Below, in pieces: positions 9,774-44,582 of a stretch of 54,337 nt of DNA. The notes under the pieces are model-generated. The model had not been told where the DNA came from. It saw nothing but the letters and a program-made list of their open reading frames with translations, and ran no database searches. Position 1 is the stretch's first letter. Each line of letters opens with the position of its first letter. This stretch comes from an uncultured Rhodospirillaceae bacterium (GTDB lineage: Bacteria; Pseudomonadota; Alphaproteobacteria; MPNO01; UBA830): contig CAZOHS010000004.1 of NCBI GenBank assembly GCA_964579285.1, positions 1-54,337 on the forward strand. The letters are read 5' to 3'. Both the position numbers and the translations under genes were made by a program.

Positions 9774-9963
9774 CCACGTTGTTTAATCGGGTAAGGGACA
9801 TGTTGCTGGCGCCCTTTTTTTACGTGTTACTTAACCATCGATTCGATAACTTTCCGCTGTCGTTTCACTACTAACAATTCTGAGAGAATTGCTTTTGATG
9901 GACGTTATGATTAAACGGGCATGAAAAGTTTTACCGTAAATAATAGCCGGAAGAACCAACCAA

Positions 9964-18424: not shown

Positions 18425-19894
18425 TTAGAATATTTCAAAGTATTCTTTGTGTTCCCAGTCCGTCACTGTAGACAGAAACCGTTCAATTTCGGATCGCTTT
18501 ATATGGGTCAAGTAGTCTACAAATTGATCCCCCATTACATCACGAAACATTTTACTTCTATCGAATGCAAATACGGCATCCATTAGATTGGTCGGAAGTT
18601 TTTCACCGACAGCCGTATAGGGGTCATTGGTTGGTTTGGGCGGCGTGAGCTTGTTTCGAACACCATGAAGGCCACTATAAATTTGAGATGAAAGGTACAA
18701 GTATGGGTTCGCCGCGGGTTCGCCCACCCGGTTCTCAATTCGAGTAGCTGGATCTTCAGGCCCGGTTCCTATTACTCTCAGCATAGCGCCTTTATTATCG
18801 CGGCCCCAAACGGCCCTATCGGGTGCTAACGAGTTTGGTTTATATCTTTTGTAGCCATTTATTGTCGGTGTAGTGAGGATGGCTGCTTGTGGGGCATTTT
18901 TCAGGATACCAGCCAGAAAATGTTGCCCTACTTCCGATAAAAGTTCTTCGGGTTTATTTGGCCGAAGGGCGTTGGTGTTGTTTGAGATGTCTGTCAGAGA
19001 CTGGTGTAAATGCCACCCACTGGCGAACGCGTTTTCTAACCCGGGTCTGCACATGAAAGTCGCGTGGTAGCCATGCCGCCGGCACACCTGTTTTACCGCG
19101 TTTCGAAACAGGATCATATTGTCAGCAGCTTCTAGTCCACCTGATGGAGCAAAAGTAAATTCAAACTGGCTTGGTCCAAATTCCGCTTCGATCGTTCTCA
19201 GGGAAAGGCCTAACGCGGTCGCCGCATGTCGAACAAGCTCAAATACTGGGTCTAAATTATCTATCGTTATTTCGGTAAGATAATTGTAGCCGTGGGAAAG
19301 CAAGCTCACCTTGGGAGGATCCGCTGGTTGTCCAGCGTATTCCGGCCAAAGCATCGCATCTTCTAATCGGTAGATGTGGCACTCAATTTCTATTCCAGCC
19401 GTATATTGATAACCTTCTTTTGTTAATTCAGACAATGCATTCTTCAAGATTTGACGTGTCGAAAAGGGGACAGGGTCACCATTTGTAAGATAACCATCGC
19501 ATAGCATCCACCCAGTCTTGTTAGCCCACGGTAAAATTTTGAAGGATCCGGGAATAGGGAGGGTTATGAAATCACCCACGCCTTCCATTTCAGGAATTCC
19601 AAAGCCCCCGCCGGGTGAAAAAACGGGAAACACGGTCGTGTGAGATGTGTCCTTTGCTAATAATGCGGTGGTTGCAGTAGACCCATTTCGCATAGCTTGG
19701 GGCACCTCCGTTGCCATAATCGTTTTGCCCCGAAGAATGCCGTGCTGATCAGGGTATGACAGCCGTACCACTTCGATTTCATTTTCTTTAATCTGGTCAA
19801 TAACGTTCTTTGCTTCTGCTAGATCATTATCTGTCCAAAGAGAGTGTTGTTCGACAAATCCAGTGCGGCCCATAGTATCCCTGTATTCAGCCAT
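18425..19894 (-). CDS. Glutamine synthetase family protein (gamma-glutamyl-amine ligase-like)
   Basis: It has the GS beta-grasp VRLSYPDQHGILRGK and the catalytic-domain motifs SGWHLHQSL and NRVGEPAANPYL. The start is placed at ATG 19894, 1 nt after the upstream stop; the track ORF uses TTG 19924. Confidence 0.85.
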   Translation of the reverse strand: MAEYRDTMGRTGFVEQHSLWTDNDLAEAKNVIDQIKENEIEVVRLSYPDQHGILRGKTIMATEVPQAMRNGSTATTALLAKDTSHTTVFPVFSPGGGFGIPEMEGVGDFITLPIPGSFKILPWANKTGWMLCDGYLTNGDPVPFSTRQILKNALSELTKEGYQYTAGIEIECHIYRLEDAMLWPEYAGQPADPPKVSLLSHGYNYLTEITIDNLDPVFELVRHAATALGLSLRTIEAEFGPSQFEFTFAPSGGLEAADNMILFRNAVKQVCRRHGYHATFMCRPGLENAFASGWHLHQSLTDISNNTNALRPNKPEELLSEVGQHFLAGILKNAPQAAILTTPTINGYKRYKPNSLAPDRAVWGRDNKGAMLRVIGTGPEDPATRIENRVGEPAANPYLYLSSQIYSGLHGVRNKLTPPKPTNDPYTAVGEKLPTNLMDAVFAFDRSKMFRDVMGDQFVDYLTHIKRSEIERFLSTVTDWEHKEYFEIF

Positions 19895-19895
19895 T

Positions 19896-21239
19896 TTAGT
19901 TGTCCATCGTTCCTTCAATTTCAAGGGATGTTATTGTTTGCGCCCAAGGAGATTTTTCTCTTCTCTTAGCGGCGGTTTCCCTCCAGGAACTTTGCCAGGT
20001 TTTAGCCGGTACTATTGTGTCGATTGTAACTGGCCCCCGGTATTCAGAGTTAATTCTGCGTGGCGCCTTTACTTTGCTACTACCCTTTTTTGTGGCGTCA
20101 ATCTCTCGGAGAAGAAGTTTGCGGTTCGCAATAATCGCTTTGTCAGTGGTACCTAAATGTTCTGAAGTGCGATCCTGTACCGTTCCCAGGGATTCAACTG
20201 CCCATTGGTCATGGACGTTAATATCCGTCCCCATCCCCGTGTATGTTTGAGTGCGTTGTTCCTCTGGGTCGTAACCGTAATTATTTAATTTATTCTTTCG
20301 GGGACGATAATCGGGCAGGGTATAGAGCTCTAGCCGGTCATTCCGCATACGCTCTTTATCAACGGGTTCCGTGAAACTAGAAAAAATTGCATACCACCAG
20401 CTCTTAGTATTGTCGATCGGGACATGCCACTGAGTAAGCATAATGTCGTTACTTATGGGTATGACAACGGCATTGGGAAAAATTTGATTAGTTACGCGAA
20501 CATGAATGTCACTGTCATTTAGGGGTCGTAGAGCAAAAATGCGAAGCCCGATATCAGTTTCCTCGCAGTCTATAGTCGGGCAGTCATGTTCTCGAAGAAC
20601 CTTGGTGATTGCCAGGGAATTTTCCTCTGTTGAAAACCGAAATTGCTGCCCATAACCCTCTTCGTCTGTTTCATCGCTAAAAAAGCGATGCAAGAAAGAA
20701 GCGTGCGCGGGATCAATGCCGACTTCGTTCAACTGCAGCCAATTGCAATCCACAAAGCCTTTAAAGGAAAATGTATAGTTTTCGGGTGCCTCGAAGCAGT
20801 CAAATAAGGGAAACGGGGGCGGTTCTCCGTCTCCCATGTAGGTAAAAATTATTCCGTTGCGTTCGATGCAGGGATAGGCGACGTGGCGTATCTTTTTATG
20901 GAAATTGCTGGTCGGCGGTTCCGCGGGTTGCTCTAGACATTGGCCACTTTCGTTAAATAACCATCCATGAAAGGCGCAACGGAGCCCACCGTCTTCCATA
21001 CGACCAAAACATAGATCGGCGCCCCGGTGAGGACAATGTCGGCCGATTAGGGCATATCCGCCCTTCTCTGTCCGGTATAGAACAAGATCTTCGCCGAGCA
21101 ACTGCAGGGCTTTTAATGGTCGATTTTCGGGTAATTCCTCCGTTAGTGCCGCCGGCTGCCAATGCTTGCGTATCACATTACCACAATGCGTTCCTGGCTC
21201 AATTTCTGTTAACAGCCGATTGTCTTCGTGGCTTAGCAT
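19896..21239 (-). CDS. Rieske [2Fe-2S] non-haem iron oxygenase, single-subunit phthalate/VanA-type family
   Basis: 447-aa ORF with Rieske motif CPHRGADLCFGRMEDGGLRCAFHGW and mononuclear iron motif NEVGIDPAHASFLH. No beta subunit follows. Confidence 0.9.
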   Translation of the reverse strand: MLSHEDNRLLTEIEPGTHCGNVIRKHWQPAALTEELPENRPLKALQLLGEDLVLYRTEKGGYALIGRHCPHRGADLCFGRMEDGGLRCAFHGWLFNESGQCLEQPAEPPTSNFHKKIRHVAYPCIERNGIIFTYMGDGEPPPFPLFDCFEAPENYTFSFKGFVDCNWLQLNEVGIDPAHASFLHRFFSDETDEEGYGQQFRFSTEENSLAITKVLREHDCPTIDCEETDIGLRIFALRPLNDSDIHVRVTNQIFPNAVVIPISNDIMLTQWHVPIDNTKSWWYAIFSSFTEPVDKERMRNDRLELYTLPDYRPRKNKLNNYGYDPEEQRTQTYTGMGTDINVHDQWAVESLGTVQDRTSEHLGTTDKAIIANRKLLLREIDATKKGSSKVKAPRRINSEYRGPVTIDTIVPAKTWQSSWRETAAKRREKSPWAQTITSLEIEGTMDN

Positions 21240-21252
21240 AGATTTTCGCTAA

Positions 21253-22362
21253 CTAAAAATTTATTACACTTCGGATGCTTTCACCCTTGTGCATAAGGTC
21301 AAAAGCATCGTTGATCCGCTCGAGCGGCATCGTGTGAGTAATCATAGGGTCAATCTCTATTTTGCCGTCCATATACCAGTCCACGATCTTCGGGACGTCT
21401 CGCCGGCTCTTGGCGCCGCCGAATGCCGTACCTTTCCAGATTCGACCGGTCACGAGTTGGAATGGTCGCGTAGAAATCTCCTGGCCGGCACCGGCGACGC
21501 CGATGATTACGCTTTCACCCCAGCCACGATGGGCACATTCAAGTGCTTGTCGCATTGTATTAACGTTGCCGATGCACTCAAACGAATAGTCTGCTCCGCC
21601 ATCTGTTAGATCAACTAGATAGGGGACGAGGTCGCCTTCGACTTCATTCGGGTCAACAAAATGGGTCATGCCAAATCTCTCCGCCATTTCTTCTTTTGAC
21701 CGATTAATGTCGACACCTATAATTTTATTTGCCCCCGCGAGCCGCGCACCTTGAATAACGTTCAGGCCGATGCCACCAAGTCCAAATATTACTACATTGG
21801 AACCGGGTTCTACACCTGCGGTATTGATTACGGCGCCAATGCCTGTAGTAACGCCGCATCCGATGTAGCAAATCTTGTCAAAGGGCGCGTCTTCCCGAAC
21901 CTTGGCGAGCGCAATTTCGGGCACTACTGTGTGGTTGGAAAATGTTGAAGTCCCCATGTAGTGAAATATTTTATCTCCGCCCTTTGAAAAACGACTGCTT
22001 CCGTCGGGCATAACGCCTTGGCCCTGTGTTTCACGAATTGATGTGCAGAGATTGGTTTTTCCGGACAAGCAGGATTTGCATTGACGGCATTCGGGAATGT
22101 AAAGCGGAATAACATGGTCCCCCTTTTTCAGGGTAGTCACTCCGGGCCCACAATCGACGACAACACCAGCACCCTCATGGCCAAGAATCGCCGGGAAAAT
22201 ACCTTCTGGGTCAGCGCCAGACAGGGTGAATTCGTCCGTGTGGCAGACACCGGTGGCCATTATTTCCACAAGCACTTCACCCTCTTTGGGTCCATCAAGT
22301 TTTACGGTCTCAATTTCAAGCGGCTTTCCGGCCTCTATAGCAATTGCTGCGCGGGTTTCCAT
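21253..22362 (-). CDS. frmA: S-(hydroxymethyl)glutathione dehydrogenase / class III alcohol dehydrogenase
   Basis: It carries [18 protein letters not shown], the structural zinc cluster [15 protein letters not shown] and GLGGIGL. The start is placed at ATG 22362 ([20 protein letters not shown]...), giving 369 aa. The track ORF extends 33 codons further upstream without homology-like sequence. Confidence 0.92.
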
Positions 22363-22438
22363 TTTTACTTCCCAAGTAAATTTGTTTGAACAACTGTGGC
22401 AGTATGTTTTCAGCCGTGGGTTGTCAATGCAAGAAAAA

Positions 22439-23296
22439 TTAAGCTTGAATACGGCTATCAATAATTTCTGACAAGATCGGCATTAGGTACTTTCGGAATT
22501 GGTCCGGGTTTTCCGACATTGGAAAGTGGCCTAACTCCTTCATAATCACAGCCTCTATGCCAATTTTCTTCGCCGTTCGGATTGTGTCCTCGGGCGTGCA
22601 TGAAAAGTCATATTCGCCTGTCATTAAGTACACAGGACATTTTTGGACATCGATACGCGCAACTCTGTCCCTATAATCTGAGTCTTCCCGGTAAAAATTT
22701 AAATCACCTTTAAACACACCGGGGCCACTTGTCAGGTAACCCCAAAGTGTCTCCCAACGGTATTCTGTGGGGCTTTGAGGTGCCACGAGGCCAGATATTA
22801 GTGCAGAACATACTTCCCCGCCATGTACGTCCGACCTGTGTAGCCAGTCACGATCGTACCAGGGGTCTTGATGATCTGAAGCCTCGACCCCTATTACTGC
22901 TCGAAATTTATCGGCGAAGGCTTGGGCCATGTGGAGGACAATCCTGCCGCCCATAGAGCAACCTATTAGGACAGGTTGATCGAGACTTAGTTCCTGACAA
23001 AAGGTCAGGATCGTATCCGAATATAAATCGGTAGTCAGTTTGTATTCCTGGTTATGGTATCCTGCAGGTGGCAAAGATTTGCCATGCCACGGCATGTCGA
23101 AGGCAATAATTCGGTATTTACTGTTGATTTCTTGATCATTGAGCAAGTGCCGAAATTGGCTCGCGTCAGAACCGGCCGTGTGAAGGCAGACGAGCGGGAT
23201 GCCGCTGCCTGTTTCCTCAAAATATACTCGGTGAGGGCAATTATTAATGTCGAGGTGGAGGTATCTACCCACTGTGGCTTCGATCTTAGCTGTCAT
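22439..23296 (-). CDS. Alpha/beta hydrolase
   Basis: 285-aa ORF with oxyanion region VCLHTAGSD, nucleophile elbow GCSMGG and C-terminal GHFP. Confidence 0.8.
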
Positions 23297-23306
23297 GGGT
23301 CCTTCC

Positions 23307-23666
23307 TTACGATGTTCCCCGTAGCGTTTCTAGGACCTCTTTAACATAACGTAGGTTCGCCATCAGCGGTTGAATATCGCCTTCGATAATAGCATCGCCG
23401 CTCTTTGTCATGGCAAAAAGATCGTGATATCCGGGTGAGGGAACGGGCTGCCAGAAAGCTTCCCAAGTCTCCACAGAGGCGCGTATCGAAAAGCGCCAAG
23501 ATAGCATCAGGCGGGGGTCCCTCCCAACCTGAACAATTTTGCCGCATTGTGTCTCGATTAACCAATCATTCTCACCGACGCCAATGACAAACTTTTCCGA
23601 AAAAAACCGTCCGCGTGCGACGAGGGGTGTATTTTTATTAACTAAATCTTGTAGGGCTTCAAGCAT
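23307..23666 (-). CDS. SCP2 sterol-carrier-like domain protein
   Basis: About 119 aa. The pattern ...FVIGVGENDWLIE...MLSWRFSIRASVETWEAF...GDAIIEGDIQPLMANLRY resembles SCP2 ligand-binding domains. The start is ATG 23666, or TTG 23669. Confidence 0.55.
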   Translation of the reverse strand: MLEALQDLVNKNTPLVARGRFFSEKFVIGVGENDWLIETQCGKIVQVGRDPRLMLSWRFSIRASVETWEAFWQPVPSPGYHDLFAMTKSGDAIIEGDIQPLMANLRYVKEVLETLRGTS

Positions 23667-23678
23667 CAATCTCTGCTG

Positions 23679-25199
23679 CTAATCGAGGGTGTAGCGTCCA
23701 TCATTTAACCGGTTAAGCCGGCCTTCAGTATAGAAGTTTTCCAATTCTCTGACGATCTCACGTCCGTCGTCTGAATTTGTTGCATCCATAAGTTCTCGAA
23801 AAAATTGTGGACCTTCTTTAAGGGCCTCCTCAACCGTTTTCCTGCGTGTCTGCTGGAAACTAGGTGGATCCGGGATCTTCCATTCTTGCGCATCACCTTC
23901 GCCAAAAGGGCGTGTCAGGTCAAACCCAGCCTTTGCCCCAGACGTGTTACCCCCGAGGGAGGGGTCGAGGGGTACTGCCCGGTATCCATTGGACGTCATA
24001 AGATCACGATCACTTTGAAATCTTGTGGCTAATGCCCATTCCATCTGCTCATCACTATAAATATTTATGTCGGGGTCAACCATGAACACATGTTTCGTGT
24101 CTGCTGTTGATGCAAGTGCGGCTGCAATAGCGTTGCGAGCTTCGCCCGGCATTCTCTGGTTTATAGAAATTCGAGCATTGTACATGCCCCCTGTCGCGGG
24201 CGGACAATAAACCGCAACGGGTTCCCGGACGGCGTTCTCCAGTGCCGCCCAAATAGCCTGTTCTGTTCTCAGTGCACAAAGTTGTGCGGTATCTGTAGTG
24301 GCCATATTGCGACCACCAATAGTAGCAGTTTGGAACACTGCGTCCTCTCGGTGGGTAATAGCGGTTAAGTGAAAGACAGGGTTTTGTTTCAGGCGACCAT
24401 AGTAACCAACGTATTCTCCATACGGTCCTTCTGGCTCGTTCCATCCATCTGCGTCAAGGTAACCTTCAATGATATATTCTGCGTCTGCTGGGACACGAAT
24501 GTCACTGGTAATGCATTTTACCACTGGAAGGGGCTCACCCCGTATTGCGCCGATTAATGCCAATTCATCCGTTGGGGGTGTCATTGAAAGAGCGGCAATA
24601 GCATCTGCGGGATGAAATCCAATGGCGAAGGCAATGGGCAGAAGATTTCCGTTTTTTTGGCTTCCTCCGTAGATCATTCGAAGATCACTGGGTGCGTTCA
24701 GATCAATCCCAGCTTGCTGACGACCGCGGAGCATTAGGCGACGCATGCCCACGTTAGTCCTCTGGGTTTCAGGATCAAACGAAAAATCAAGTGTCGCCGA
24801 AATATAGGGCGCGCCATCTTCACCATGCTGCAGATGCACGGGGAGTGAGGTTAAGTCGGCTTCCTCCTCTCTCAGAACTATTTTCTGTACCGGCGCATCT
24901 TGCCCATTTATTTCCACCGGCTCGAGGGGCGCACGGAGCCGGTTTATTACCTCTGACAAGAGATCAGCCTCATCAAGCCCAAGTGACTTGGCAATGCGAC
25001 GTCGCGAACCCATAACATTACCCGCCAATTCTTGTCCTTCGGGCCCCGCACTGCGAAACCATGTTGCTTTGGTATTTCCCTCAAGACGTGAAGCGATTGT
25101 TGATAGCGGTGCGCTCTCCTTAATGATTTCTATTTCATCGTCTTTAACTAGCGACTCAAGGAAGGTACGGAAACGATATTTTTCGGTATCTGCAGTCAC
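23679..25199 (-). CDS. UbiD family (prenylated-FMN-dependent) decarboxylase
   Basis: It shows UbiD signatures TNVGMRR, PIAFAIGFHP, DELALIGAIRGEPLPVVKC, VPADAEYIIEG and EGPYGEYVGYYG. The start is placed at GTG 25199, forming a GTGA overlap with the upstream stop; the track ORF uses TTG 25235. Confidence 0.85.
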   Translation of the reverse strand: MTADTEKYRFRTFLESLVKDDEIEIIKESAPLSTIASRLEGNTKATWFRSAGPEGQELAGNVMGSRRRIAKSLGLDEADLLSEVINRLRAPLEPVEINGQDAPVQKIVLREEEADLTSLPVHLQHGEDGAPYISATLDFSFDPETQRTNVGMRRLMLRGRQQAGIDLNAPSDLRMIYGGSQKNGNLLPIAFAIGFHPADAIAALSMTPPTDELALIGAIRGEPLPVVKCITSDIRVPADAEYIIEGYLDADGWNEPEGPYGEYVGYYGRLKQNPVFHLTAITHREDAVFQTATIGGRNMATTDTAQLCALRTEQAIWAALENAVREPVAVYCPPATGGMYNARISINQRMPGEARNAIAAALASTADTKHVFMVDPDINIYSDEQMEWALATRFQSDRDLMTSNGYRAVPLDPSLGGNTSGAKAGFDLTRPFGEGDAQEWKIPDPPSFQQTRRKTVEEALKEGPQFFRELMDATNSDDGREIVRELENFYTEGRLNRLNDGRYTLD

Positions 25200-25993
25200 G
25201 TGGATACTCCTGCGGTCGTGGCAATTAGGTTCCAAAAACTCTTTGGATTTTCGACGTGCGCGTTATGTCCCAGACCCGCTAATTGAAGGGCGTTTCTATC
25301 GAGACTGCGGAGTTCTTCTATGGCGACCATCTGATCATGTTCGCCGGCTGAAAGCAGGATCGGTGCCTTCGCGGCATTGTATACGTCGCCGGCATTTGCG
25401 AGGGCGACCATTGCCGTGCGGTTGTCTGCGGCGAGACGCCATTTGCCGTTATTTTCAACTATTCCGGTTTGCGCAAATTCAGAATTAGGGTCGACTATGC
25501 CGCGGAGTCCCGTGACGAGAATAAATCGTTCTCGTGCTTCTTCTTCGGTGTTAAACCATCGCGCCGGAGTTCTTATTAACTTTAAAATTCCCGAGTATTC
25601 TTCTTCGCTCCAATTGACTTTCACACCTGTCGTAATCACAGCTTTTGGTGACACCCCAAACCAACCCGACGCGAGGAGTATACCTACAAGTCCCCCCATA
25701 GAATGCCCCGCTAGGTATACTTCTTCTGAATCCACTAATAATGCAGACATATCAGTGGCGTGATTAGCCAAACTATAGTTTGTGCTGTGACCAGATCTTC
25801 CATGCCCCCGCATGTCGGGGATTAACCAGCGGCCTGGCCACTTTTCTTGCAGGAACGGCTTCAGACCTTGCCAAATATTGCCGGTACCGGAGAGGCCGTG
25901 CATTAACAATAATGTTGGCGTTTTGTTGGTGCCGCCTTCTTCTACCCAGAGGTCTATAGCGCCTATATGGTTGAGGGTCATCGACCCTTCCAT
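25196..25993 (-). CDS. Alpha/beta hydrolase
   Basis: 265-aa ORF with LLMHGLSGTG, nucleophile elbow GHSMGG and C-terminal GLGHNAH. The alternative ATG 25981 would give an ATGA overlap with the crotonase stop. Confidence 0.8.
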   Translation of the reverse strand: MEGSMTLNHIGAIDLWVEEGGTNKTPTLLLMHGLSGTGNIWQGLKPFLQEKWPGRWLIPDMRGHGRSGHSTNYSLANHATDMSALLVDSEEVYLAGHSMGGLVGILLASGWFGVSPKAVITTGVKVNWSEEEYSGILKLIRTPARWFNTEEEARERFILVTGLRGIVDPNSEFAQTGIVENNGKWRLAADNRTAMVALANAGDVYNAAKAPILLSAGEHDQMVAIEELRSLDRNALQLAGLGHNAHVENPKSFWNLIATTAGVST

Positions 25994-26835
25994 TTCGGTT
26001 TTCTCTTCTCGCGAAAGGCCAAATTTCCTTCTCGCGAATCTTCGGATTGTATTAATATAGATTGTCCCAAACGTTCTATTAAACGCCCCGTTTCAGTATC
26101 GGTATTTTGGCATGTATTGATTACGTGCTTGGCCATACCGAGAGCGAGGGGTGCCCTGTCCATCAAAATTCGCGCAAACTCCAACGTTTCATCTAATAAG
26201 GTTTCTTGTGCGCAAACTCGGTTCACTAAGCCCCATTGTTCGCCCTTGCTCGCACTTACCGGTATCGTGGTCATCATCATTTCCTTTAGTCGGCCGATAC
26301 CCACCATTTGAATCATTCGGGATGCCGCGCCCGACGCCGGGATCACGCCAATATTGTTTTCAGTCAGCGTAAATTCGGCCTTTTTCGCCGCTATCCGAAA
26401 ATCACTGGCGATCGCTATTTCAACTCCACCCCCAGCGCAGATACCATTAATCATAGAAATGACCGGTTTTTCCATATTTTCCAGATCGTCTAGCATCTCG
26501 TGATTTGCCCGCACATACGCCCGATATTGCGGCGATGGTAGATTGTTTTCGTAGTCAAGCCCATTTATGTCCCGACCCGAGCAAAAGCCGCGCCCCGCAC
26601 CGGTTATTACAAGTACCCGGACGTTTTCATCAAAATTTACGCGCCAAATAACAGATCGTATTTCCCGAATCATTCGTTCGTCGAAGGCATTTAGTTTACG
26701 AGGGCGATTTAACGTTAAAAGTCCCACACCTTTTTCGACAACTTCAAAAATTATAGTGTCAAATGTTTCTGGGTGATCGATAAAGCCTAATGGTTTTCCG
26801 TCCGCGTCGAGGCGGACCGTCGGAGCATCCGACAT
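25978..26835 (-). CDS. Enoyl-CoA hydratase/isomerase (crotonase) family protein
   Basis: 285-aa ORF with GRGFCSGRDI and NGICAGGGVEIAIASDFRIAA, which are crotonase oxyanion-hole segments. Confidence 0.85.
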   Translation of the reverse strand: MSDAPTVRLDADGKPLGFIDHPETFDTIIFEVVEKGVGLLTLNRPRKLNAFDERMIREIRSVIWRVNFDENVRVLVITGAGRGFCSGRDINGLDYENNLPSPQYRAYVRANHEMLDDLENMEKPVISMINGICAGGGVEIAIASDFRIAAKKAEFTLTENNIGVIPASGAASRMIQMVGIGRLKEMMMTTIPVSASKGEQWGLVNRVCAQETLLDETLEFARILMDRAPLALGMAKHVINTCQNTDTETGRLIERLGQSILIQSEDSREGNLAFREKRKPKWKGR

Positions 26836-26912
26836 GATTATTGTGTCCCTACCTAATTTATATCCGTATCTTGTCCATCCGGCTTTGTTCGATCAACCGT
26901 CTTGTCTTAACA

Positions 26913-27911
26913 CTATGGGATGAGCACGCTCATTCCCTTTGTTTTGCGCGCTTCCATATCGCGATGAGCGTCCGAAGCGCGCGAGAGTGGATATTTCAAT
27001 CCGATAGAAATTTGTATTTTGTTTTGTACAACCATTGCGATCAGGTCAGTTGCGCGCTTAAGCATTTCTTCGCGGTTGCGAAGATGCCAAAGGAAAGCGG
27101 CGCTCGTGACGTATAGAGAACCTAGTTGGTTTAACTGAAACAAATCCACTGGTGGAATGGGGCCTGATGCGGTTCCAAAAGAAGCGAGCAATCCTCTCGG
27201 CCGCAGACAACGAAGTGACTCCTCATAGGTGTCAGCGCCAACAGAGTCATATACGACGGCGACACCTTCTCCGTCCGATAACGACCGCACTTGTCCGACC
27301 ACGTCGTCGCGACCCCGGACCAACGTATGCCGGCAACCAAAAGATGCCGCGGTTTCTTCTTTCTCCGGTGAGCCAACTATTCCGATAACCCGTGCCCCCA
27401 GATGGTTTGCCCATTGACAGAGAATTTGCCCTACTCCGCCAGCGGCGGCATGGACCGCGATTGTATCCCCTTTACCAACAGGATAAACATCGTGGATAAG
27501 GTAGTGGGCCGTGAGACCTTTAGTCGTCATCGCCGCTGCTGTTTCATCGTCTAACTCGTCAGGCAGCACGAAAAGTCGATCAGCTGACATTACGCGTGCT
27601 TCGCAATAGGCCCCTCGGGGTAGCGCGTGGCCACCGCTTGAATATGCTACTCTATCTCCAATGGAGAGGTGCTCCACCCCTTCGCCTTTTGCTTCTATCA
27701 CCCCCGACGCTTCCGCCCCGATACAATGCGGGAGGTGCGGAAGCGGATATCGACCATTCCGTGTGTGTAAGTCAGCAAAATTGACACCGATGGCATTGTG
27801 GCGAATTAGGACCTCACCAGGACCCGGCGCACCAATTTGCACTTCATCAAATTGAAGAACTTCTGGCCCCCCATATTCGTGTACGCGAATGGCTTTCACT
27901 GATTTCGGCAT
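26913..27911 (-). CDS. NADPH:quinone oxidoreductase-like MDR (zinc-type ADH superfamily)
   Basis: 332-aa ORF with VHEYGGPEVLQFDEV...GVNFADLHTRNGRYP and the nucleotide motif AAAGGVGQ. Confidence 0.85.
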   Translation of the reverse strand: MPKSVKAIRVHEYGGPEVLQFDEVQIGAPGPGEVLIRHNAIGVNFADLHTRNGRYPLPHLPHCIGAEASGVIEAKGEGVEHLSIGDRVAYSSGGHALPRGAYCEARVMSADRLFVLPDELDDETAAAMTTKGLTAHYLIHDVYPVGKGDTIAVHAAAGGVGQILCQWANHLGARVIGIVGSPEKEETAASFGCRHTLVRGRDDVVGQVRSLSDGEGVAVVYDSVGADTYEESLRCLRPRGLLASFGTASGPIPPVDLFQLNQLGSLYVTSAAFLWHLRNREEMLKRATDLIAMVVQNKIQISIGLKYPLSRASDAHRDMEARKTKGMSVLIP

Positions 27912-27941
27912 GTGTCGTCTTCGTCTATTAGCAAGGGTGTT

Positions 27942-28418
27942 TCAAAATGGGATGGTTAAACCATCCATCATGCTGTCACAGTTAACGAGCTCTACTTTTT
28001 TCCACTTCAACAAAAAACCGTCTCGGGCTTTTTCTAGGGCATGCCATTGCGTGCCTCCAAAAATTCTTTGTTTATCGCGTCTATATTCAATCATCTGAAA
28101 TTTTGAACGCACGATGTGCGTGTCATCGGCTTGTTCTTCAAGGGTTGCATTGGTGACAATACGACTCGTACGGGATATGGGGGTCTGAGCGTGCAGGGTT
28201 CCAGCTGCAAGTCTTCGCACCCGTGTTTCGAGTAGTTGGCGGTCATCGTACATAAGGGACACAGTGTTTTTTGGGTCCGTTTGACCTTCTTCTATAGGCA
28301 CCCAATACCAGCCATCTTCCGCAAAAAGGCCCAACCAATCATCCCAGCGTCGTTCGTCCAGAATTTTCGCTTCCTGAATAAGAAAATTTTCGATTTGAGT
28401 TAACACATGGGTCGTCAT
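27942..28418 (-). CDS. Aromatic ring-hydroxylating dioxygenase beta (small) subunit
   Basis: It has an NTF2-like pattern FLIQEAKILDERRWDDWLGLFAEDGWYW. The start is placed at ATG 28418, forming ATGA with the alpha-subunit stop (28415-28418), giving 158 aa. Confidence 0.8.
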   Translation of the reverse strand: MTTHVLTQIENFLIQEAKILDERRWDDWLGLFAEDGWYWVPIEEGQTDPKNTVSLMYDDRQLLETRVRRLAAGTLHAQTPISRTSRIVTNATLEEQADDTHIVRSKFQMIEYRRDKQRIFGGTQWHALEKARDGFLLKWKKVELVNCDSMMDGLTIPF

Positions 28419-29734
28419 GTTACGATTACATTTTCTGCGGTCATATAGGAGAGCCAAGCGTCGTACATATTACGAATGTATACTTCGCTGGTGGAATCCT
28501 CGCCTCGGACACCGCCGTGTTCATCTGCTCGATCTGTAGTGTAACCCCTTCCTACCTGAATCCACTCTGATCCACCTGAAGACACGCCAACACCGATCCG
28601 TCCATACGTTTCTAAGTCGTCGGTGAGCACAATTGATCCCGTTCCATTGGTTACGTTAGCGAATGCTATAGTGTCTTCAAACATCTTTGCAGGCGCGCCC
28701 TTCAGTCGAAATGAATAAGTGAAAACTTCCGTTCGGTTTACAGATACTGGGTAGACCACACGAAGTTGTCGAAATTGACTCATGAACGAAAGGTTCGGAT
28801 AAATATTTGAGTTCCAGCGGGTTACATCTAAAACTCGCTGAGTTTCGTCACGACCCTTGGCATCCTCCATAGCGACAATATATTCCGCAAATACCGGGTC
28901 GCGCTTTGCTGCAACGAGCTTTTCGTCATCGTGGTAGTCACCCAGGTAAGAATGGCCGTTCGGGTATGTCCAAATACCCACCTGTTCTTGCCAGAATTTG
29001 TAGGGTGCACCGTTTTGGCGCATTTGACGAATTCCGATCTCACCAGCGCCATCCGTATGGGAATTATGGTCTTGGTGTTCAGCCGCTTCAATAGAAGATT
29101 TGTGGACAAATAACGGATGTGCGGCATCGCAAAGATTTTCAAGGTATAGTTTCCAGTTTCCATCAAACGCGTGTTTAAACACGCCGCCCGCCACCTCAAT
29201 TTCATTGCTTGGAGCACGATCTATCATGTCGTCAAGCGAGGTTGCCATGTATCCTAGAAAATCTATCAATGATGGGCCGTCACTGGCCAAGGACGCGAAG
29301 ATAAAACCGCGGTAGCTTTCCACGCGCGGTGCTTGAACCATAGAGGTCCCCGGTGCTGCCGGATCGAAGTGATCAGGGTACCCTTGCTGAAGAGGGACGC
29401 GTATCAACTTACCGTCCGTGCCATATGTCCAACCGTGGTAACAACAGACAAATTCTTTTGCGTGACCATGGTCTTGGGAGACAACCATTGCGCCGCGATG
29501 CGCACACTGATTATGAACCACGTGGATTTTACCGTCTGTGTGCCGCATCATAACCATCGGCCTTCTGCCAATGCGGGTTGTAGCGAAATCACCCGGAGTT
29601 TTTACCTGGCTCTCATGGCCCACATAGACCCATGACTTCTCAAAAATGCGTTCCATTTCGAGTTCGAAAATTATTGGGTCGCTATACACGTCCCTGTGGA
29701 TCCGTCCTTCTTGTATAAGCTTTTCTACCTGCAT
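28415..29734 (-). CDS. Aromatic ring-hydroxylating dioxygenase alpha (large) subunit, benzoate/toluate-type
   Basis: 439-aa ORF with N-terminus VYSDPIIFELEMERIFEKSWVYVGHESQ, Rieske motif CAHRGAMV...CCYHGWTY and catalytic iron motif ENLCDAAHPLFVH. Confidence 0.9.
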   Translation of the reverse strand: MQVEKLIQEGRIHRDVYSDPIIFELEMERIFEKSWVYVGHESQVKTPGDFATTRIGRRPMVMMRHTDGKIHVVHNQCAHRGAMVVSQDHGHAKEFVCCYHGWTYGTDGKLIRVPLQQGYPDHFDPAAPGTSMVQAPRVESYRGFIFASLASDGPSLIDFLGYMATSLDDMIDRAPSNEIEVAGGVFKHAFDGNWKLYLENLCDAAHPLFVHKSSIEAAEHQDHNSHTDGAGEIGIRQMRQNGAPYKFWQEQVGIWTYPNGHSYLGDYHDDEKLVAAKRDPVFAEYIVAMEDAKGRDETQRVLDVTRWNSNIYPNLSFMSQFRQLRVVYPVSVNRTEVFTYSFRLKGAPAKMFEDTIAFANVTNGTGSIVLTDDLETYGRIGVGVSSGGSEWIQVGRGYTTDRADEHGGVRGEDSTSEVYIRNMYDAWLSYMTAENVIVT

Positions 29735-29851
29735 TCCTTAACCCAAATATTTTCCTGCAATGTTGAGGTCGTCGCATTTAGCATTATACAGCAGTATTTT
29801 GACGCTGAGTAGAAAACTGCCGATAAGCCCGTGTGTAAATCAATGTGTCTG

Positions 29852-29887: not shown

Positions 29888-30676
29888 ATGAATGCTACCG
29901 CCGTGCAACACATTACCGGCCAGTCGATGAGAGACCAAGTGAGCGATGAAGAGTGGCAGGTGCGTGTCGACCTTGCTGCAGCTTATCGCCTCGCCGATCT
30001 CTACGGTTGGACTACAACATTAATCTATAACCATATTTCCGCCCGTATTCCTGGTCCTGATCATCATTTTCTTCTCAACCCGTTTGGATTGGGGTGGAGA
30101 GAAGTTACCGCGTCGAACCTGGTTAAAATCGACTTGGAAGGTAATATTTTGGATGATACACCGTACCAGATTAACGACGCAGGATACACAATACACAGTG
30201 CCATTCATGGCGCCCGCGAAGACGCAATGTGTGTCATTCACACGCACACGGAAGCCGGCATGGCGGTCTCCTCGCTTGAAGAAGGGCTGATCTATACAAA
30301 TCAGGACGCGATGCAGTTTTATGGGCATACGGCCTATCACGATTTTGAAGGGATTGCGCTCGATCTCTCTGAGCGTGAGACTTTGGTTTCCGATCTAAGT
30401 GACAACAAGGTGATGATATTGCGTAATCACGGTCTACTGACGACGGGGCACACCATTGCAGATGCCTGGGTTCAAATGTATTTCCTGGAAAAGGTGTGCA
30501 AAGCGCAGTTGACGCTGCTTTCGGCCGCCGCTGCCACTGGTCAAAAGGTTATCTATCCCACCAAAGAGGTTTGTGAACACACGGCCAAGCAGTATGAGGC
30601 AGCAGGGTGCGGAGAGCGTGAATGGCCGTCCTTGATCCGCCAGCTTGACGAAGTCACAACCGAATACAAGTACTAG
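29888..30676 (+). CDS. Class II aldolase/adducin-fold protein
   Basis: 262-aa ORF with DLAAAYRL..., zinc-ligand region CVIHTHTEAGMAVS and LRNHGLLTTG. GGAG lies upstream of the ATG. Confidence 0.85.
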   Translation: MNATAVQHITGQSMRDQVSDEEWQVRVDLAAAYRLADLYGWTTTLIYNHISARIPGPDHHFLLNPFGLGWREVTASNLVKIDLEGNILDDTPYQINDAGYTIHSAIHGAREDAMCVIHTHTEAGMAVSSLEEGLIYTNQDAMQFYGHTAYHDFEGIALDLSERETLVSDLSDNKVMILRNHGLLTTGHTIADAWVQMYFLEKVCKAQLTLLSAAAATGQKVIYPTKEVCEHTAKQYEAAGCGEREWPSLIRQLDEVTTEYKY

Positions 30677-33939: not shown

Positions 33940-34003
33940 AGTTTGGATTAAAAAACATATTGGCGCAAACTGTTGTAACGATTAAAGGTTGAGCTGCTGA
34001 CTG

Positions 34004-44568: not shown

Positions 44569-44582
44569 TTTGGGAATTAAAA

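What the first reader, a model, noticed from the sequence alone, without database searches (positions are those of the whole stretch)
18425..29734. An 11-gene, 11.3-kb co-directional catabolic block combining enzyme types not known together
Eleven minus-strand genes run head to tail. In order they are: ring-hydroxylating dioxygenase alpha and beta, quinone-oxidoreductase-type MDR, crotonase, alpha/beta hydrolase, UbiD decarboxylase, SCP2 protein, second alpha/beta hydrolase, glutathione-dependent formaldehyde dehydrogenase, single-subunit Rieske oxygenase, and glutamine-synthetase-like ligase. The junctions in that order are: ATGA overlap (28415-28418), 30 nt, 77 nt, overlap, GTGA overlap (25196-25199), 9-12 nt, 10 nt, 76 nt, 13 nt, 1 nt. 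This spacing argues for one or two transcripts with translational coupling. I know of no characterised pathway that joins a benzoate-type alpha/beta dioxygenase, a prFMN decarboxylase, CoA-ester chemistry, a demethylase-like Rieske enzyme, formaldehyde detoxification and a gamma-glutamyl ligase. The content suggests complete degradation of a methylated and/or aminated aromatic or heteroaromatic carboxylate.
Basis: partly seen in the sequence, partly recalled or inferred. Interest (0 to 1): 0.72.

Follow-up and report, generated by a model that had tools for sequence, protein, structure and literature searches.

The report
Patchwork array of catabolic gene modules
The eleven head-to-tail genes are real, but related genomes show they are at least five separately inherited enzyme modules pushed together by deletions in a compact marine bacterial genome, not one conserved new degradation pathway.

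Summary
Observation confirmed. Eleven intact minus-strand genes lie at 18425-29734, with exactly the junctions reported. A 99.6%-identical independent assembly has the same order.

The single-pathway reading is mostly not supported. Only this genome has the 11 genes contiguous. In six syntenic relatives the block is broken by opposite-strand genes, including TetR and MarR regulators. The dioxygenase alpha/beta pair and the small-protein/hydrolase pair are each present or absent independently.

- The crotonase-hydrolase-UbiD triad, the alpha/beta dioxygenase pair and the Rieske-GS pair each occur alone elsewhere.
- The formaldehyde dehydrogenase sits next to UbiD, not the Rieske gene, in more distant genomes.
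- Tight spacing is the norm across this window (93% coding, no regulator domain found in the scanned ORFs).
- The Rieske-GS pair matches a known kind, the sadA-sadB arylamine-deaminating dioxygenase. It is 52-56% identical to plasmid pairs that also carry ferredoxin and reductase, which are absent here.
- The UbiD is nearest to the furandicarboxylate decarboxylase HmfF (36%). Its relatives recur with CoA ligase and molybdenum hydroxylase genes. A set of that type lies 9 kb away.
- The large dioxygenase subunit is nearest to the auxin-degrading IadD (37%).

Substrates remain unknown. Interest is moderate to low.

The parts
28415..29734 (-). g01: large (alpha) subunit of a two-subunit Rieske ring-hydroxylating oxygenase, nearest to IadD. 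Variable module A.
   Evidence: Pfam Rieske + Ring_hydroxyl_A. Best solved relatives are Variovorax IadD (9o71, 7yls), E 1e-95 to 1e-96 and 37% identity. The CxH...CxxH and DxxHxxxxH motifs are visible in the sequence. Present in L093 and L008. Absent in L006, L012 and the P0005 locus. Alone with g02 in L094.
27942..28418 (-). g02: small (beta) subunit of the same oxygenase. Its start overlaps the g01 stop (ATGA).
   Evidence: Pfam Ring_hydroxyl_B, E 2e-30. Junction read. Co-occurs with g01 in L008, L093 and L094.
26913..27911 (-). g03: quinone-oxidoreductase-type medium-chain dehydrogenase/reductase. It is an ancestral neighbour, kept even where g01-g02 are absent.
   Evidence: NF008024 NADPH:quinone reductase, 310 bits, below the 348 cutoff. 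Present at 67-79% identity in L006, L008, L012 and L093. A gene with the same Pfam domains, 334 aa, sits at the same position in the P0005 locus.
25978..26835 (-). g04: crotonase-family enoyl-CoA hydratase. First gene of the conserved triad (module B).
   Evidence: Pfam ECH_1, E 2e-59. Nearest solved structures are canonical hydratases. Both catalytic Glu contexts (GGGVE, TEN) are visible in the sequence. The ECH-ABH1-UbiD order is conserved in L005, L006, L008, L012 and L013. L004 has a CoA ligase inserted. The L093 copy is a pseudogene.
25196..25981 (-). g05: alpha/beta hydrolase 1. It overlaps both neighbours by 4 nt and is the closest partner of UbiD.
   Evidence: Pfam Abhydrolase_1/6. GHSMGG nucleophile elbow. 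No close characterised relative in the PDB; best E 4e-10. Its overlap with the UbiD start is conserved in L004, L006, L008 and L093.
23679..25199 (-). g06: UbiD-family (prFMN-dependent) decarboxylase, nearest to the 2,5-furandicarboxylate decarboxylase HmfF.
   Evidence: TIGR00148, 274 bits against a cutoff of 245. Best solved relative is HmfF (6h6v), E 6e-61 and 36% identity. The EGPYGEY and NVGMRR motifs are kept. No UbiX gene is in the window.
23307..23666 (-). g07: small protein of about 120 aa, a remote SCP2-like family. Variable module C together with g08.
   Evidence: No direct Pfam, NCBIfam or PDB hit. 11 of 60 family members weakly hit Pfam SCP2. Fused to a g08-like hydrolase in P0366. 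P0362 has the same arrangement but a truncated hydrolase part. Present only in the window, L093, L006/L007 and L012.
22439..23296 (-). g08: alpha/beta hydrolase 2, partner of g07.
   Evidence: Pfam Abhydrolase_1/6. GCSMGG elbow. 62% identical to the C-terminal part of the fusion protein P0366. Its presence and absence track g07.
21253..22362 (-). g09: glutathione-dependent formaldehyde dehydrogenase (class III alcohol dehydrogenase). Conserved neighbour of UbiD and probably housekeeping.
   Evidence: TIGR02818 equivalog, 622.8 bits against a cutoff of 543.95. 82-95% identical across loci, the most conserved gene of the block. Directly follows UbiD in L008, L009, L010, L014 and the P0005 locus.
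19896..21239 (-). g10: single-subunit (alpha-only) Rieske oxygenase of the phthalate/LigXa type, sadA-like. Module E together with g11.
   Evidence: Pfam Rieske + LigXa_C. Nearest solved structures are the isophthalate and phthalate dioxygenases of C. testosteroni (9ina, 7fjl), E 1e-57 to 1e-60. 55-56% identical to the oxygenase gene that precedes the GS-like gene on pMNOD01, Polaromonas JS666 plasmid 1 and N. resinovorum SA1 pSA3.
18425..19894 (-). g11: glutamine-synthetase-like gamma-glutamyl ligase for an organic amine, sadB-like and NpaA1-like. It starts 1 nt after g10.
   Evidence: Pfam Gln-synt_C. It reaches no NCBIfam equivalog cutoff. 44% identical to the 1-naphthylamine glutamylase NpaA1 (8wwu), E 5e-128. 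52-56% identical to the plasmid sadB-like genes, against 46-48% to tdnQ/dcaQ-type genes. The pair with g10 is conserved in L006, L008, L012, L013, L091 and L092.
29783..29790 (-). Candidate extended -10 promoter element (TGTATAAT), 48 nt upstream of the g01 start codon.
   Evidence: Read from the sequence. The consensus scan did not report it, because it has no good -35. Function is untested.
16673..17929 (-). MFS transporter on the same strand, downstream of g11 after the opposite-strand DUF3253 gene. Conserved next to the Rieske-GS pair in close relatives, so it is a possible uptake component.
   Evidence: Pfam MFS_3/MFS_1. Same position in L006, L008, L012 and the P0005 locus.
29888..30676 (+). 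Class II aldolase/adducin-family gene, divergent from g01. It is the conserved left border of the variable region.
   Evidence: NF005451, 349.6 bits against a cutoff of 207. Divergent neighbour in L005, L006, L008, L012, L093 and the P0005 locus.
38785..45398 (+). Five genes: molybdenum-hydroxylase large, FAD and 2Fe-2S subunits, an AMP-forming CoA ligase and a second crotonase. The family order matches hmfABCDE. This is a possible downstream partner of the UbiD triad and is not part of the 11-gene block.
   Evidence: Pfam and NCBIfam. The hmfABCDE order is described in PMC8091172. Relatives of g06 sit next to CoxL-like genes in 11 of 59 loci and next to ligase genes in 10 of 59. Orthology to Hmf proteins was not tested.

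Best explanation
The block is a lineage-specific concatenation of at least five separately inherited gene modules. They sit in a variable region of a compact, low-GC marine alphaproteobacterial genome.

**Modules**
- A: g01-g02, an IadDE-like two-subunit Rieske oxygenase.
- g03: an ancestral quinone-reductase-type dehydrogenase.
- B: g04-g05-g06, a translationally coupled crotonase, alpha/beta hydrolase and HmfF-like UbiD decarboxylase.
- C: g07-g08, an SCP2-like protein plus a second hydrolase. These two are fused in some organisms.
- g09: a housekeeping glutathione-dependent formaldehyde dehydrogenase that ancestrally follows UbiD.
- E: g10-g11, a sadA-sadB-type unit.

**How the array arose (inferred)**
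Relatives keep opposite-strand genes between these modules: TetR, penicillin amidase, and a MarR/cupin/HbpS group. This genome has lost them, which leaves a gap-free co-directional array. The array is probably read from a promoter upstream of g01. Internal promoters in the 77-nt and 76-nt gaps are possible.

**Mechanisms by analogy (inferred)**
- Module E: the GS-like ligase uses ATP to attach glutamate to an aromatic amine. The alpha-only Rieske oxygenase then dioxygenates the gamma-glutamyl arylamide to a catechol, removing the nitrogen. It would draw electrons from a ferredoxin and reductase encoded elsewhere.
- Module B: it belongs to hmf-like chemistry. A (hetero)aromatic acid is decarboxylated, then processed as a CoA thioester by hydration or hydrolysis. 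The ligase and molybdenum hydroxylase at 38785-45398 could take part.

**Shown versus inferred**
Shown: gene content, junctions, homologies, and the synteny pattern with independent presence and absence. Inferred: the direction of the rearrangements, transcription, substrates, and any cross-talk between modules.
For: **Synteny**
- Only the window and its 99.6%-identical strain have all 11 genes contiguous.
- L093: g01 to g09 are contiguous, but the ECH is a pseudogene and the next genes after FDH are the opposite-strand unknown/CDO_I/HbpS/MarR group; the locus ends inside MarR, so its Rieske-GS was not seen.
- L008: a TetR gene lies upstream of RHDab-MDR. An opposite-strand penicillin amidase and an extra esterase precede ECH-ABH1-UbiD-FDH. 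A MarR group precedes Rieske-GS. There is no g07-g08.
- L006 and L012: no RHDab, but g07-g08 are present.
- P0005 locus: neither RHDab nor g07-g08.
- So all four presence/absence combinations of modules A and C exist.

**Modules found alone**
- ECH-ABH1-UbiD in L005, and with a ligase in L004.
- UbiD-FDH-Ldh_2 in L009 and L010.
- Rieske-GS in L091 and L092.
- RHDab in L094.
- 75 metagenome loci with UbiD at 56-61% identity carry none of the other block genes as recognisable orthologues. The one exception is L017, where ECH and ABH1 homologues (62% and 41% identical) lie 4.4 kb downstream.

**Compact genome**
- Gaps inside and outside the block are alike (median 11 vs 17 nt).
- The window is 93% coding.
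- GC is 48.7% against 53-70% in relatives.
- No regulator domain appears in any of the Pfam-scanned ORFs of the window (those of at least 150 aa, plus smaller ones near the block).

**Module E**
- Plasmid pairs ordered oxygenase-GS-ferredoxin-reductase are 55-56% (g10) and 52-56% (g11) identical.
- This matches the sadA/B/C/D description for 4-aminobenzenesulfonate deamination (PMC5632844).
- NpaA1 is 44% identical, and its amine-binding E232 and E234 are kept.
- In L091 the pair abuts a 3-hydroxyanthranilate dioxygenase cluster.

**Module C**
- The fusion protein P0366 joins a g07-like and a g08-like part.

**Module B**
- HmfF is the nearest solved structure.
- ECH, ABH, ligase and CoxL-like genes recur beside relatives of g06.
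Against: - In six related genomes the modules always lie in the same region, between the class II aldolase gene and the DUF3253/MFS genes. That could reflect functional linkage rather than a mere insertion hot spot.
- Selection for co-expression could itself have driven the compaction.
- The direction of events (loss here versus gain elsewhere) rests on parsimony over a handful of metagenome-derived loci, without a species tree.
- No transcript data exist.
- The sad link is by architecture and by similarity to unstudied plasmid genes. I could not align g10 and g11 with the tested Hydrogenophaga SadA and SadB proteins.
- The hmf-like reading of module B rests on 36% identity and on a context seen in only about one fifth of the related loci.
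Confidence: 0.7

Rival explanations
1. One integrated pathway. The 11 genes would together degrade a nitrogen-containing aromatic or heteroaromatic acid, for example an indole-acetate, anthranilate or aminobenzoate type compound.
- The IadDE-like oxygenase attacks the ring.
- The dehydrogenase, crotonase and hydrolases process a side chain as a CoA ester.
- UbiD removes a carboxyl group.
- The sad-like pair removes the amino group and yields a catechol.
For: - The modules co-localise in the same region in the window, L093, L008, L006, L012, L013 and the P0005 locus.
- The Variovorax iad pathway, started by IadDE, ends in the arylamine anthranilate.
- The sad-like pair sits beside 3-hydroxyanthranilate cleavage genes in L091.
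- In this genome all junctions are tight and no regulator separates the genes.
Against: - Modules are present and absent independently in all four combinations.
- Relatives have separate TetR and MarR regulators and opposite-strand genes between the modules.
- The ECH is a pseudogene in the closest relative with the same order.
- The block has no CoA ligase or transferase, no thiolase, no ferredoxin or reductase, no UbiX and no ring-cleavage dioxygenase.
- g01 is only 37% identical to IadD.
- Each module occurs alone elsewhere.
Confidence: 0.15
2. Two functional units rather than five. g01 to g09 would form one catabolic operon for a (hetero)aromatic carboxylate. g10-g11, with the MFS transporter, would form a separate arylamine unit that became fused to it by deletion of the MarR group.
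For: - L093 keeps g01 to g09 contiguous and in the same order, with the MarR group directly after g09.
- The Rieske-GS pair is clearly autonomous.
- The FDH-Rieske junction of 13 nt is unique to this genome.
Against: - Within g01 to g09, RHDab and g07-g08 vary independently.
- In four relatives an opposite-strand amidase lies between g03 and g04.
- FDH follows UbiD in genomes that lack every other gene of the block nearby.
- The ECH is decayed in L093.
Confidence: 0.1
3. A decaying remnant. The array would be a partly non-functional leftover of once-regulated catabolic clusters in a genome undergoing reduction. The missing partner genes (electron carriers, UbiX, CoA ligase) would mean that several of the enzymes no longer work.
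For: - Regulators and neighbouring genes have been lost relative to relatives.
- GC is low and coding density is high.
- The ECH is a pseudogene in L093.
- The window has no ferredoxin or reductase, no glutamine-amidotransferase-type partner, and no UbiX.
Against: - All 11 ORFs are full length relative to their homologues, and catalytic motifs are intact.
- The 99.6%-identical strain shows 76 substitutions and no indel across 20 kb.
- Partner genes may simply lie elsewhere in the genome, as they must for the sad-like pairs in L091 and L092.
Confidence: 0.05

Closest known systems
SadABCD, the 4-aminobenzenesulfonate 3,4-dioxygenase system of Hydrogenophaga sp. PBC (Gan et al. 2012, as described in PMC5632844), and its homologues on the plasmids of N. 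resinovorum SA1, Polaromonas JS666 and M. nodulans
   Same: - An alpha-only Rieske oxygenase gene is directly followed by a glutamine-synthetase-like gene.
- g10 is 55-56% and g11 is 52-56% identical to the plasmid pairs.
- The two genes are inherited together; their identities fall in step in L091 and L092.
   Different: - No ferredoxin (sadC) or reductase (sadD) gene lies beside the pair or anywhere in the 54-kb window. The same holds for the marine relatives.
- No own regulator is present.
- The substrate is unknown.
- Identity to the tested SadA and SadB proteins themselves was not measured.
Aniline / 1-naphthylamine dioxygenase systems (AtdA1-A5, TdnQTA1A2B, NpaA1-A5)
   Same: - The GS-like ligase is 44% identical to NpaA1, whose structure and arylamine glutamylation are established (PMC11335346).
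- The glutamate, ATP and metal region and the amine-binding residues E232 and E234 are kept.
- The logic of 'glutamylate the amine, then dioxygenate' is shared.
   Different: - The adjacent oxygenase is alpha-only, not alpha/beta.
- There is no glutamine-amidotransferase-like gene and no reductase.
- Substrate-tunnel residues differ: F75 to K, M81 to T, W235 to F, V201 to Y. This suggests a different, possibly more polar or anionic, amine.
HMF/furoate pathway: HmfFG decarboxylase plus HmfABCDE (Cupriavidus basilensis HMF14; PMC8091172)
   Same: - g06 is nearest to HmfF among solved structures (36% identity).
- The window also holds genes for molybdenum-hydroxylase L, M and S subunits, a CoA ligase and a crotonase, in the hmfABCDE order.
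- Relatives of g06 recur beside such genes.
   Different: - There is no UbiX/HmfG gene.
- The decarboxylase is coupled to an alpha/beta hydrolase and a canonical hydratase. From memory, neither belongs to the described hmf set.
- The hmfABCDE-like genes are 13.6 kb from g06 (9 kb from the block), on the other strand.
- Orthology to Hmf proteins is untested.
iad auxin-degradation locus of Variovorax (IadCDE and downstream enzymes)
   Same: g01-g02 are the same type of two-subunit Rieske oxygenase, and IadD is the best solved match.
   Different: - Identity is only 37%.
- There is no IadC reductase, IadF ligase, IadG thiolase, IadI amidase or IadK2 binding protein.
- g01-g02 occur without any of the other block genes in L094.

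Membership tests
Sad-type arylamine-deaminating dioxygenase (sadABCD) | Alpha-only Rieske oxygenase gene immediately followed by a glutamine-synthetase-like gene | tested here: met
   g10 (Rieske + LigXa_C, with no beta subunit beside it) ends 1 nt before g11 (Gln-synt_C). The same order occurs on three plasmids.
Sad-type arylamine-deaminating dioxygenase (sadABCD) | Dedicated ferredoxin and FAD reductase genes in the same cluster | tested here: not met
   tblastn with the Polaromonas JS666 ferredoxin and reductase finds nothing in the window, nor in L006, L008, L012, L091, L092 or L093.
Sad-type arylamine-deaminating dioxygenase (sadABCD) | Sequence relatedness to the experimentally tested SadA and SadB of Hydrogenophaga sp. 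PBC | not tested
   Those sequences (WP_009515254.1, WP_009515256.1) were not available. Only plasmid homologues with the same gene order were compared.
Sad-type arylamine-deaminating dioxygenase (sadABCD) | Conversion of an arylamine to a catechol with loss of the amino group | not testable with these tools
   This needs enzyme assays.
Aniline-dioxygenase type (AtdA1-5 / TdnQTA1A2B / NpaA1-5) | GS-like gamma-glutamyl-arylamide synthetase | tested here: met
   44% identity to NpaA1 over 476 aligned residues, E 5e-128. E232 and E234 are kept.
Aniline-dioxygenase type (AtdA1-5 / TdnQTA1A2B / NpaA1-5) | Adjacent glutamine-amidotransferase-like gene, alpha/beta oxygenase and reductase | tested here: not met
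   The classical order GS-GATase-alpha-beta-reductase is seen on pLME1 and pPBL-H3. The window has none of these next to g11.
HMF/furoate pathway (hmfFG + hmfABCDE) | UbiD-family decarboxylase of the HmfF type | tested here: inconclusive
   HmfF is the best solved match, but identity is only 36%. JGI labels many homologues '2,5-furandicarboxylate decarboxylase 1'. Those are automatic names.
HMF/furoate pathway (hmfFG + hmfABCDE) | UbiX/HmfG prenyltransferase gene beside the decarboxylase | tested here: not met
   No flavoprotein or UbiX-type domain appears among the Pfam-scanned ORFs of the window. Only an FMN_red protein lies at 38118-38675.
HMF/furoate pathway (hmfFG + hmfABCDE) | Molybdenum hydroxylase (three subunits), CoA ligase and crotonase-type hydrolase in the order ABCDE | tested here: inconclusive
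   The family order matches at 38785-45398. No Hmf sequences were compared.
iad auxin-degradation locus | IadDE oxygenase together with IadC reductase, IadF ligase, IadG thiolase, IadH, IadI, IadJ | tested here: not met
   Only a 37%-identical oxygenase pair and one dehydrogenase are present. There is no reductase, ligase, thiolase or amidase in the block.
Glutathione-dependent formaldehyde dehydrogenase (TIGR02818) | Score above the curated equivalog cutoff | tested here: met
   622.8 bits against a cutoff of 543.95, full length.
SCP2 sterol-carrier fold (g07) | Match to Pfam PF02036, or a confident SCP2-like structure | tested here: inconclusive
   - No hit for g07 itself or for a 4-sequence profile.
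- 11 of 60 family members hit SCP2 weakly, best E 3.7e-4.
- The single-sequence AlphaFold model is unusable, pLDDT 43.
Single operon (one transcription unit) | One transcript spanning all 11 genes | not testable with these tools
   Only indirect evidence is available. The scan placed no terminator-like site in the intergenic gaps, and its counts were near shuffle expectation.

The most novel reading that the evidence does not exclude
In this streamlined marine lineage, deletion of regulators and intervening genes may have welded three oxygenase/decarboxylase modules into one newly formed super-operon. The modules are IadDE-like, HmfF-like with crotonase and hydrolase, and Sad-like. The operon would degrade a natural nitrogen-containing aromatic acid of marine dissolved organic matter, such as an indole, anthranilate or aminobenzoate type compound. 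The Sad-like pair would run on shared rather than dedicated electron carriers.
Probability: 0.12. Interest if true: 0.65.

Novelty: new member of a known kind. Interest (0 to 1): 0.33.

Why it matters
- **Caution for genome reading.** In compact genomes, a long co-directional array with overlapping stop and start codons is weak evidence for a single pathway. Here comparative genomics separates the array into modules.
- **The sad-type pair.** The alpha-only Rieske oxygenase plus GS-like ligase was found in xenobiotic (sulfanilate) degraders, and its natural substrate is unknown. It turns out to be common in uncultured marine Alphaproteobacteria, and in one genome it lies next to 3-hydroxyanthranilate cleavage genes. 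That gives a concrete handle on natural arylamine turnover in the sea.
- **The UbiD-hydrolase pair.** The HmfF-like UbiD with a translationally coupled alpha/beta hydrolase is an uncharacterised decarboxylase clade worth testing.
- None of this overturns current knowledge.

Tried and rejected
- **Genome-collection scan with UbiD**. It gave only two distant loci without the other block genes.
- **Promoter and terminator scan**. Counts were near shuffle expectation and nothing usable fell in the gaps.
- **Repeats and Rfam**. No flanking repeats, IS elements or RNA elements were found, only a tRNA at 4611-4684. The block is therefore not an evident mobile island.
- **Horizontal-transfer island.** Rejected, because GC in the block (0.46-0.50) matches the rest of the window.
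- **g07 identity.**
  - Single-sequence AlphaFold gave pLDDT 43, so no fold search was run.
  - A 4-sequence profile found nothing in the PDB or Pfam.
- **Plasmid search with g01.** It gave only hits of 44% identity or less, and I did not look at their contexts.
- **'Rieske demethylase feeds formaldehyde to FDH'.** Rejected on synteny.
- **'Benzoate-type dioxygenase'.** Rejected, since scores are far below the benA, antA and hcaE cutoffs.
- **Membership in the iad locus.** Rejected (see the membership rows).
- **Literature.** A search for a described GS-like plus LigXa-type Rieske pair in marine bacteria found nothing. The sad system was found only through plasmid contexts.
- **Primary papers.** The primary HmfF paper and the primary Sad paper were not in the library.

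Full report
**1. The observation**

The window has eleven intact minus-strand ORFs between 18425 and 29734. I read the junctions from the sequence. In gene order they are: a 4-nt ATGA overlap, 30 nt, 77 nt, ATGA overlap, GTGA overlap, 12 nt (9 nt from an alternative TTG), 10 nt, 76 nt, 13 nt and 1 nt.

Pfam and NCBIfam confirm ten of the eleven family calls:

| Gene | Coordinates | Family call |
|---|---|---|
| g01 | 28415-29734 | Rieske + Ring_hydroxyl_A |
| g02 | 27942-28418 | Ring_hydroxyl_B |
| g03 | 26913-27911 | quinone-reductase-type MDR |
| g04 | 25978-26835 | enoyl-CoA hydratase |
| g05 | 25196-25981 | alpha/beta hydrolase |
| g06 | 23679-25199 | UbiD (TIGR00148, above cutoff) |
| g08 | 22439-23296 | alpha/beta hydrolase |
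| g09 | 21253-22362 | S-(hydroxymethyl)glutathione dehydrogenase (622.8 bits, cutoff 543.95) |
| g10 | 19896-21239 | Rieske + LigXa_C |
| g11 | 18425-19894 | Gln-synt_C |

The small gene g07 (23307-23666) has no direct hit in Pfam, NCBIfam or the PDB, even as a four-sequence profile. A search of 1.84 billion representatives found 505 relatives. Of 60 aligned members, 11 weakly hit Pfam SCP2 (best E 3.7e-4) and no other family recurs. 'SCP2' is therefore a reasonable but remote call.

The arrangement is not an assembly artefact. An ENA scaffold that is 99.6% identical (76 mismatches in 20.2 kb, no indel) has the same order. A JGI contig covers UbiD to FDH.

**2. Is the spacing special?**

No. 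Across the window the median same-strand gap is 17 nt outside the block and 11 nt inside. Coding density is about 93%. Functionally unrelated neighbours are just as tight: aldolase-ODP-MsrB are 3 and 7 nt apart, and pirin and the chromate transporter are 13 nt apart.

No transcription-factor domain appears in any of the Pfam-scanned ORFs of the 54 kb — those of at least 150 aa, plus the smaller ones near the block. GC is 48.7%, against 53-70% in syntenic relatives. This is a compact, AT-shifted genome in which tight junctions are the rule.

A consensus scan placed no terminator-like site in the intergenic gaps and found no promoter enrichment. A TGTATAAT element lies at 29790-29783, 48 nt upstream of g01. 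One or a few long transcripts are plausible but untested.

**3. Comparative genomics**

I found relatives of the central UbiD gene and read their contigs.

Close relatives share the backbone MsrB-ODP-aldolase ... DUF3253-MFS-TauD. Their proteins are 56-95% identical to those of the window, apart from the decayed ECH of L093. They show the block in pieces ('<' marks an opposite-strand gene):

| Locus | Source | Arrangement between the aldolase gene and the DUF3253/MFS genes |
|---|---|---|
| L093 | GCA_036136335.1 | RHDa RHDb MDR ECH ABH1 UbiD g07 ABH2 FDH, then <unknown <CDO_I <HbpS <MarR. The ECH has four in-frame stops and a destroyed active-site region. |
| L008 | GCA_049603315.1 | <TetR, RHDa RHDb MDR, <penicillin amidase, extra esterase, ECH ABH1 UbiD FDH, <three genes <MarR, Rieske GS. 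No g07-ABH2. |
| L006, L012 | metagenome | No RHDab, but g07-ABH2 present |
| P0005 locus | metagenome | Neither RHDab nor g07-ABH2 |

All four presence/absence combinations of RHDab and g07-ABH2 therefore exist.

More distant loci:

| Locus | Arrangement |
|---|---|
| L005 | aldolase, then ECH-ABH1-UbiD only |
| L004 | ECH - CoA ligase - ABH1 - UbiD |
| L009, L010 | UbiD-FDH-Ldh_2 |
| 75 metagenome loci, UbiD 56-61% identical | None of the other block genes as a recognisable orthologue. The one exception is L017, where ECH and ABH1 homologues (62% and 41% identical) lie 4.4 kb downstream. |
| L091, L092 | Rieske-GS pair alone, both genes 57-61% identical (they diverge in step) |
| L094 | RHDab pair alone |

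The block is a mosaic, and the gap-free array is peculiar to this lineage.

By parsimony the window lineage lost the MarR group: five relatives keep it, and the window has 13 nt there. Together with L093 it also lost the amidase and esterase.

**4. What the modules are**

*g10-g11.* Among solved structures, g11 is closest to NpaA1, the GS-like enzyme that glutamylates 1-naphthylamine and anilines (E 5e-128, 44% identity; PMC11335346).
- The amine-binding residues E232 and E234 are kept.
- Tunnel and pocket residues differ: F75 to K, M81 to T, W235 to F, V201 to Y.

A protein search of plasmids gave two tiers.
- At 46-48% identity lie the classical aniline/chloroaniline clusters, ordered GS-GATase-alpha-beta-reductase.
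- At 52-56% identity lie clusters in which an alpha-only oxygenase gene directly precedes the GS-like gene. Ferredoxin and FAD reductase genes lie in the same cluster, directly downstream of the GS gene in Polaromonas JS666. These occur on M. nodulans pMNOD01, Polaromonas JS666 plasmid 1 and pSA3 of the sulfanilate degrader N. resinovorum SA1.
- g10 is 55-56% identical to those oxygenases.

This is the architecture described for the sad genes of Hydrogenophaga: sadA oxygenase, sadB GS-like, sadC ferredoxin, sadD reductase. They deaminate 4-aminobenzenesulfonate to 4-sulfocatechol, and their natural substrate is unknown (PMC5632844).

The window and its marine relatives lack sadC-, sadD- and GATase-like genes.

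In L091 the pair abuts genes that pass the equivalog cutoffs for 3-hydroxyanthranilate 3,4-dioxygenase and 2-hydroxymuconic semialdehyde dehydrogenase. An ACMSD-type amidohydrolase and a Rid-family protein lie there too. That is a hint at amino-aromatic substrates.

*g04-g05-g06.*
- g06 is closest to HmfF, the 2,5-furandicarboxylate decarboxylase (E 6e-61, 36% identity). It keeps the EGPxGE and NxGxxR motifs that I recall as catalytic in UbiD enzymes.
- g04 looks like a true hydratase, with both Glu contexts present.
- g05 has no characterised close relative.
- The 4-nt overlaps ECH/ABH1 and ABH1/UbiD are conserved in relatives.

Among 59 UbiD-centred loci with enough flank, the counts within 6 kb were: CoxL-like genes in 11, CoA ligases in 10, crotonases in 11 and hydrolases in 8. 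Examples are Paraburkholderia (hydrolase, XDH M/S/L subunits, ECH, UbiD) and Neorhizobium (UbiD, XDH L subunit, ECH, FAD monooxygenase).

The window itself has a molybdenum hydroxylase (L-CoxG fusion, M, S), an AMP-ligase and a second crotonase at 38785-45398. This is the family order of hmfABCDE. An hmf-like route for a (hetero)aromatic acid is my best guess for this module, at low confidence. No UbiX gene is in the window.

*g01-g02.* The best solved matches are Variovorax IadD structures (37% identity). IadCDE oxidises indole-3-acetic acid. All NCBIfam equivalogs (benzoate, anthranilate, phenylpropionate) score far below cutoff. The family is widespread at 67-84% identity. No reductase or ferredoxin is nearby.

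*g07-g08.* P0366 (424 aa) is a fusion of a g07-like part (50%) and a g08-like part (62%). P0362 is similar. The two therefore form their own unit.

*g09.* This is the most conserved gene (82-95% identity). It follows UbiD even in genomes where the other genes are absent. It looks like a housekeeping gene, not a partner of the Rieske enzyme.

**5. How it most likely works**

*Shown:* the content, the junctions, the homologies and the modular inheritance.

*Inferred:*
- Loss of regulators and intervening genes produced a co-directional array. It is probably read from upstream of g01, perhaps with internal starts in the two gaps of about 77 nt.
- Module E glutamylates an aromatic amine (g11, ATP-dependent). 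g10 then dioxygenates the amide to a catechol, using electron carriers encoded elsewhere.
- Module B decarboxylates a (hetero)aromatic acid and handles CoA-ester intermediates.
- Modules A and C have unknown substrates.

I put 0.7 on the mosaic reading and 0.15 on a truly integrated pathway. I put 0.10 on a two-unit version and 0.05 on a decaying remnant.

**6. Comparison with known systems, and novelty**

The closest known systems are:
- sadABCD for g10-g11. The architecture is met; the electron-transfer genes are not.
- Aniline-type dioxygenases. The ligase is met; the rest is not.
- hmfFG/ABCDE for g04-g06 plus the distant gene set. This is inconclusive.
- The iad locus for g01-g02. It is not a member.

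Each module is a new, uncharacterised member of a known kind. The combination is not a conserved entity.

Specialist interest lies in two places. One is the marine spread of sad-like pairs, whose natural substrate is unknown. The other is the UbiD-hydrolase pair. The block as a 'novel pathway' does not hold. Interest: 0.33.

Noticed in passing
window 38785-45398 (+): Five genes: a molybdenum-hydroxylase large subunit fused to a CoxG domain (960 aa), an FAD subunit, a 2Fe-2S subunit, an AMP-forming CoA ligase and a crotonase. This is the same family order as hmfABCDE of the furoate pathway. It could be the downstream partner of the HmfF-like UbiD.
   Followed up: partly
whole window; loci L004-L013, L091-L094: GC is 48.7% here against 53-70% in syntenic relatives. 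The window is about 93% coding. No transcription-factor domain appears in any of the Pfam-scanned ORFs. This is the signature of a streamlined lineage that has lost the TetR and MarR genes its relatives keep.
   Followed up: partly
L093 11920-12759: In the closest relative with the same gene order, the crotonase gene is a pseudogene. It has four in-frame stops and the active-site region is lost.
   Followed up: yes
proteins P0366 and P0362 (relatives of window 22439-23666): In other organisms the small SCP2-like protein and the second alpha/beta hydrolase are fused into one polypeptide. This marks them as a functional pair.
   Followed up: yes
L092 6730-9503 and L094 9001-10796: The same backbone slot, beside mutL, pgi and two M16 peptidase genes, holds the Rieske-GS pair in one genome and the alpha/beta dioxygenase pair in another. 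It looks like a second insertion hot spot for oxygenase modules.
   Followed up: no
L091 2102-10769: The sad-like pair lies next to genes for 3-hydroxyanthranilate 3,4-dioxygenase, an ACMSD-type amidohydrolase, 2-hydroxymuconic semialdehyde dehydrogenase, a Rid-family protein, a LigB-type dioxygenase and a thioesterase. This looks like an amino-aromatic meta-cleavage cluster.
   Followed up: partly
window 11616-12845 (+): A two-domain glyoxalase/VOC protein (409 aa) with weak similarity to extradiol ring-cleavage dioxygenases. It is the only candidate ring-cleavage enzyme near the block.
   Followed up: no
window 9090-9963: A stretch of about 875 nt with no ORF of at least 150 aa, in an otherwise densely coded window. 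Rfam finds nothing there.
   Followed up: no
window 48084-49225 (+): A split thiamine-diphosphate enzyme, with its N- and C-terminal domains as two adjacent genes that abut with no gap (they share base 48626). An EamA transporter and an aldehyde dehydrogenase follow it.
   Followed up: no
window 4961-6541 and 45508-47175 (+): Two large TPR-repeat proteins. The first also has a weak glycosyltransferase-9 match. A TPR protein also flanks the syntenic region in L005 and L006.
   Followed up: no
window 4611-4684 (+): A tRNA gene, the only Rfam match in the window.
   Followed up: no
L003 1223-1324 vs window 33876-34239: The 99.6%-identical strain has about 100 bp where the window has about 360 bp. 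This leaves a shortened pirin gene (188 against 283 aa).
   Followed up: no
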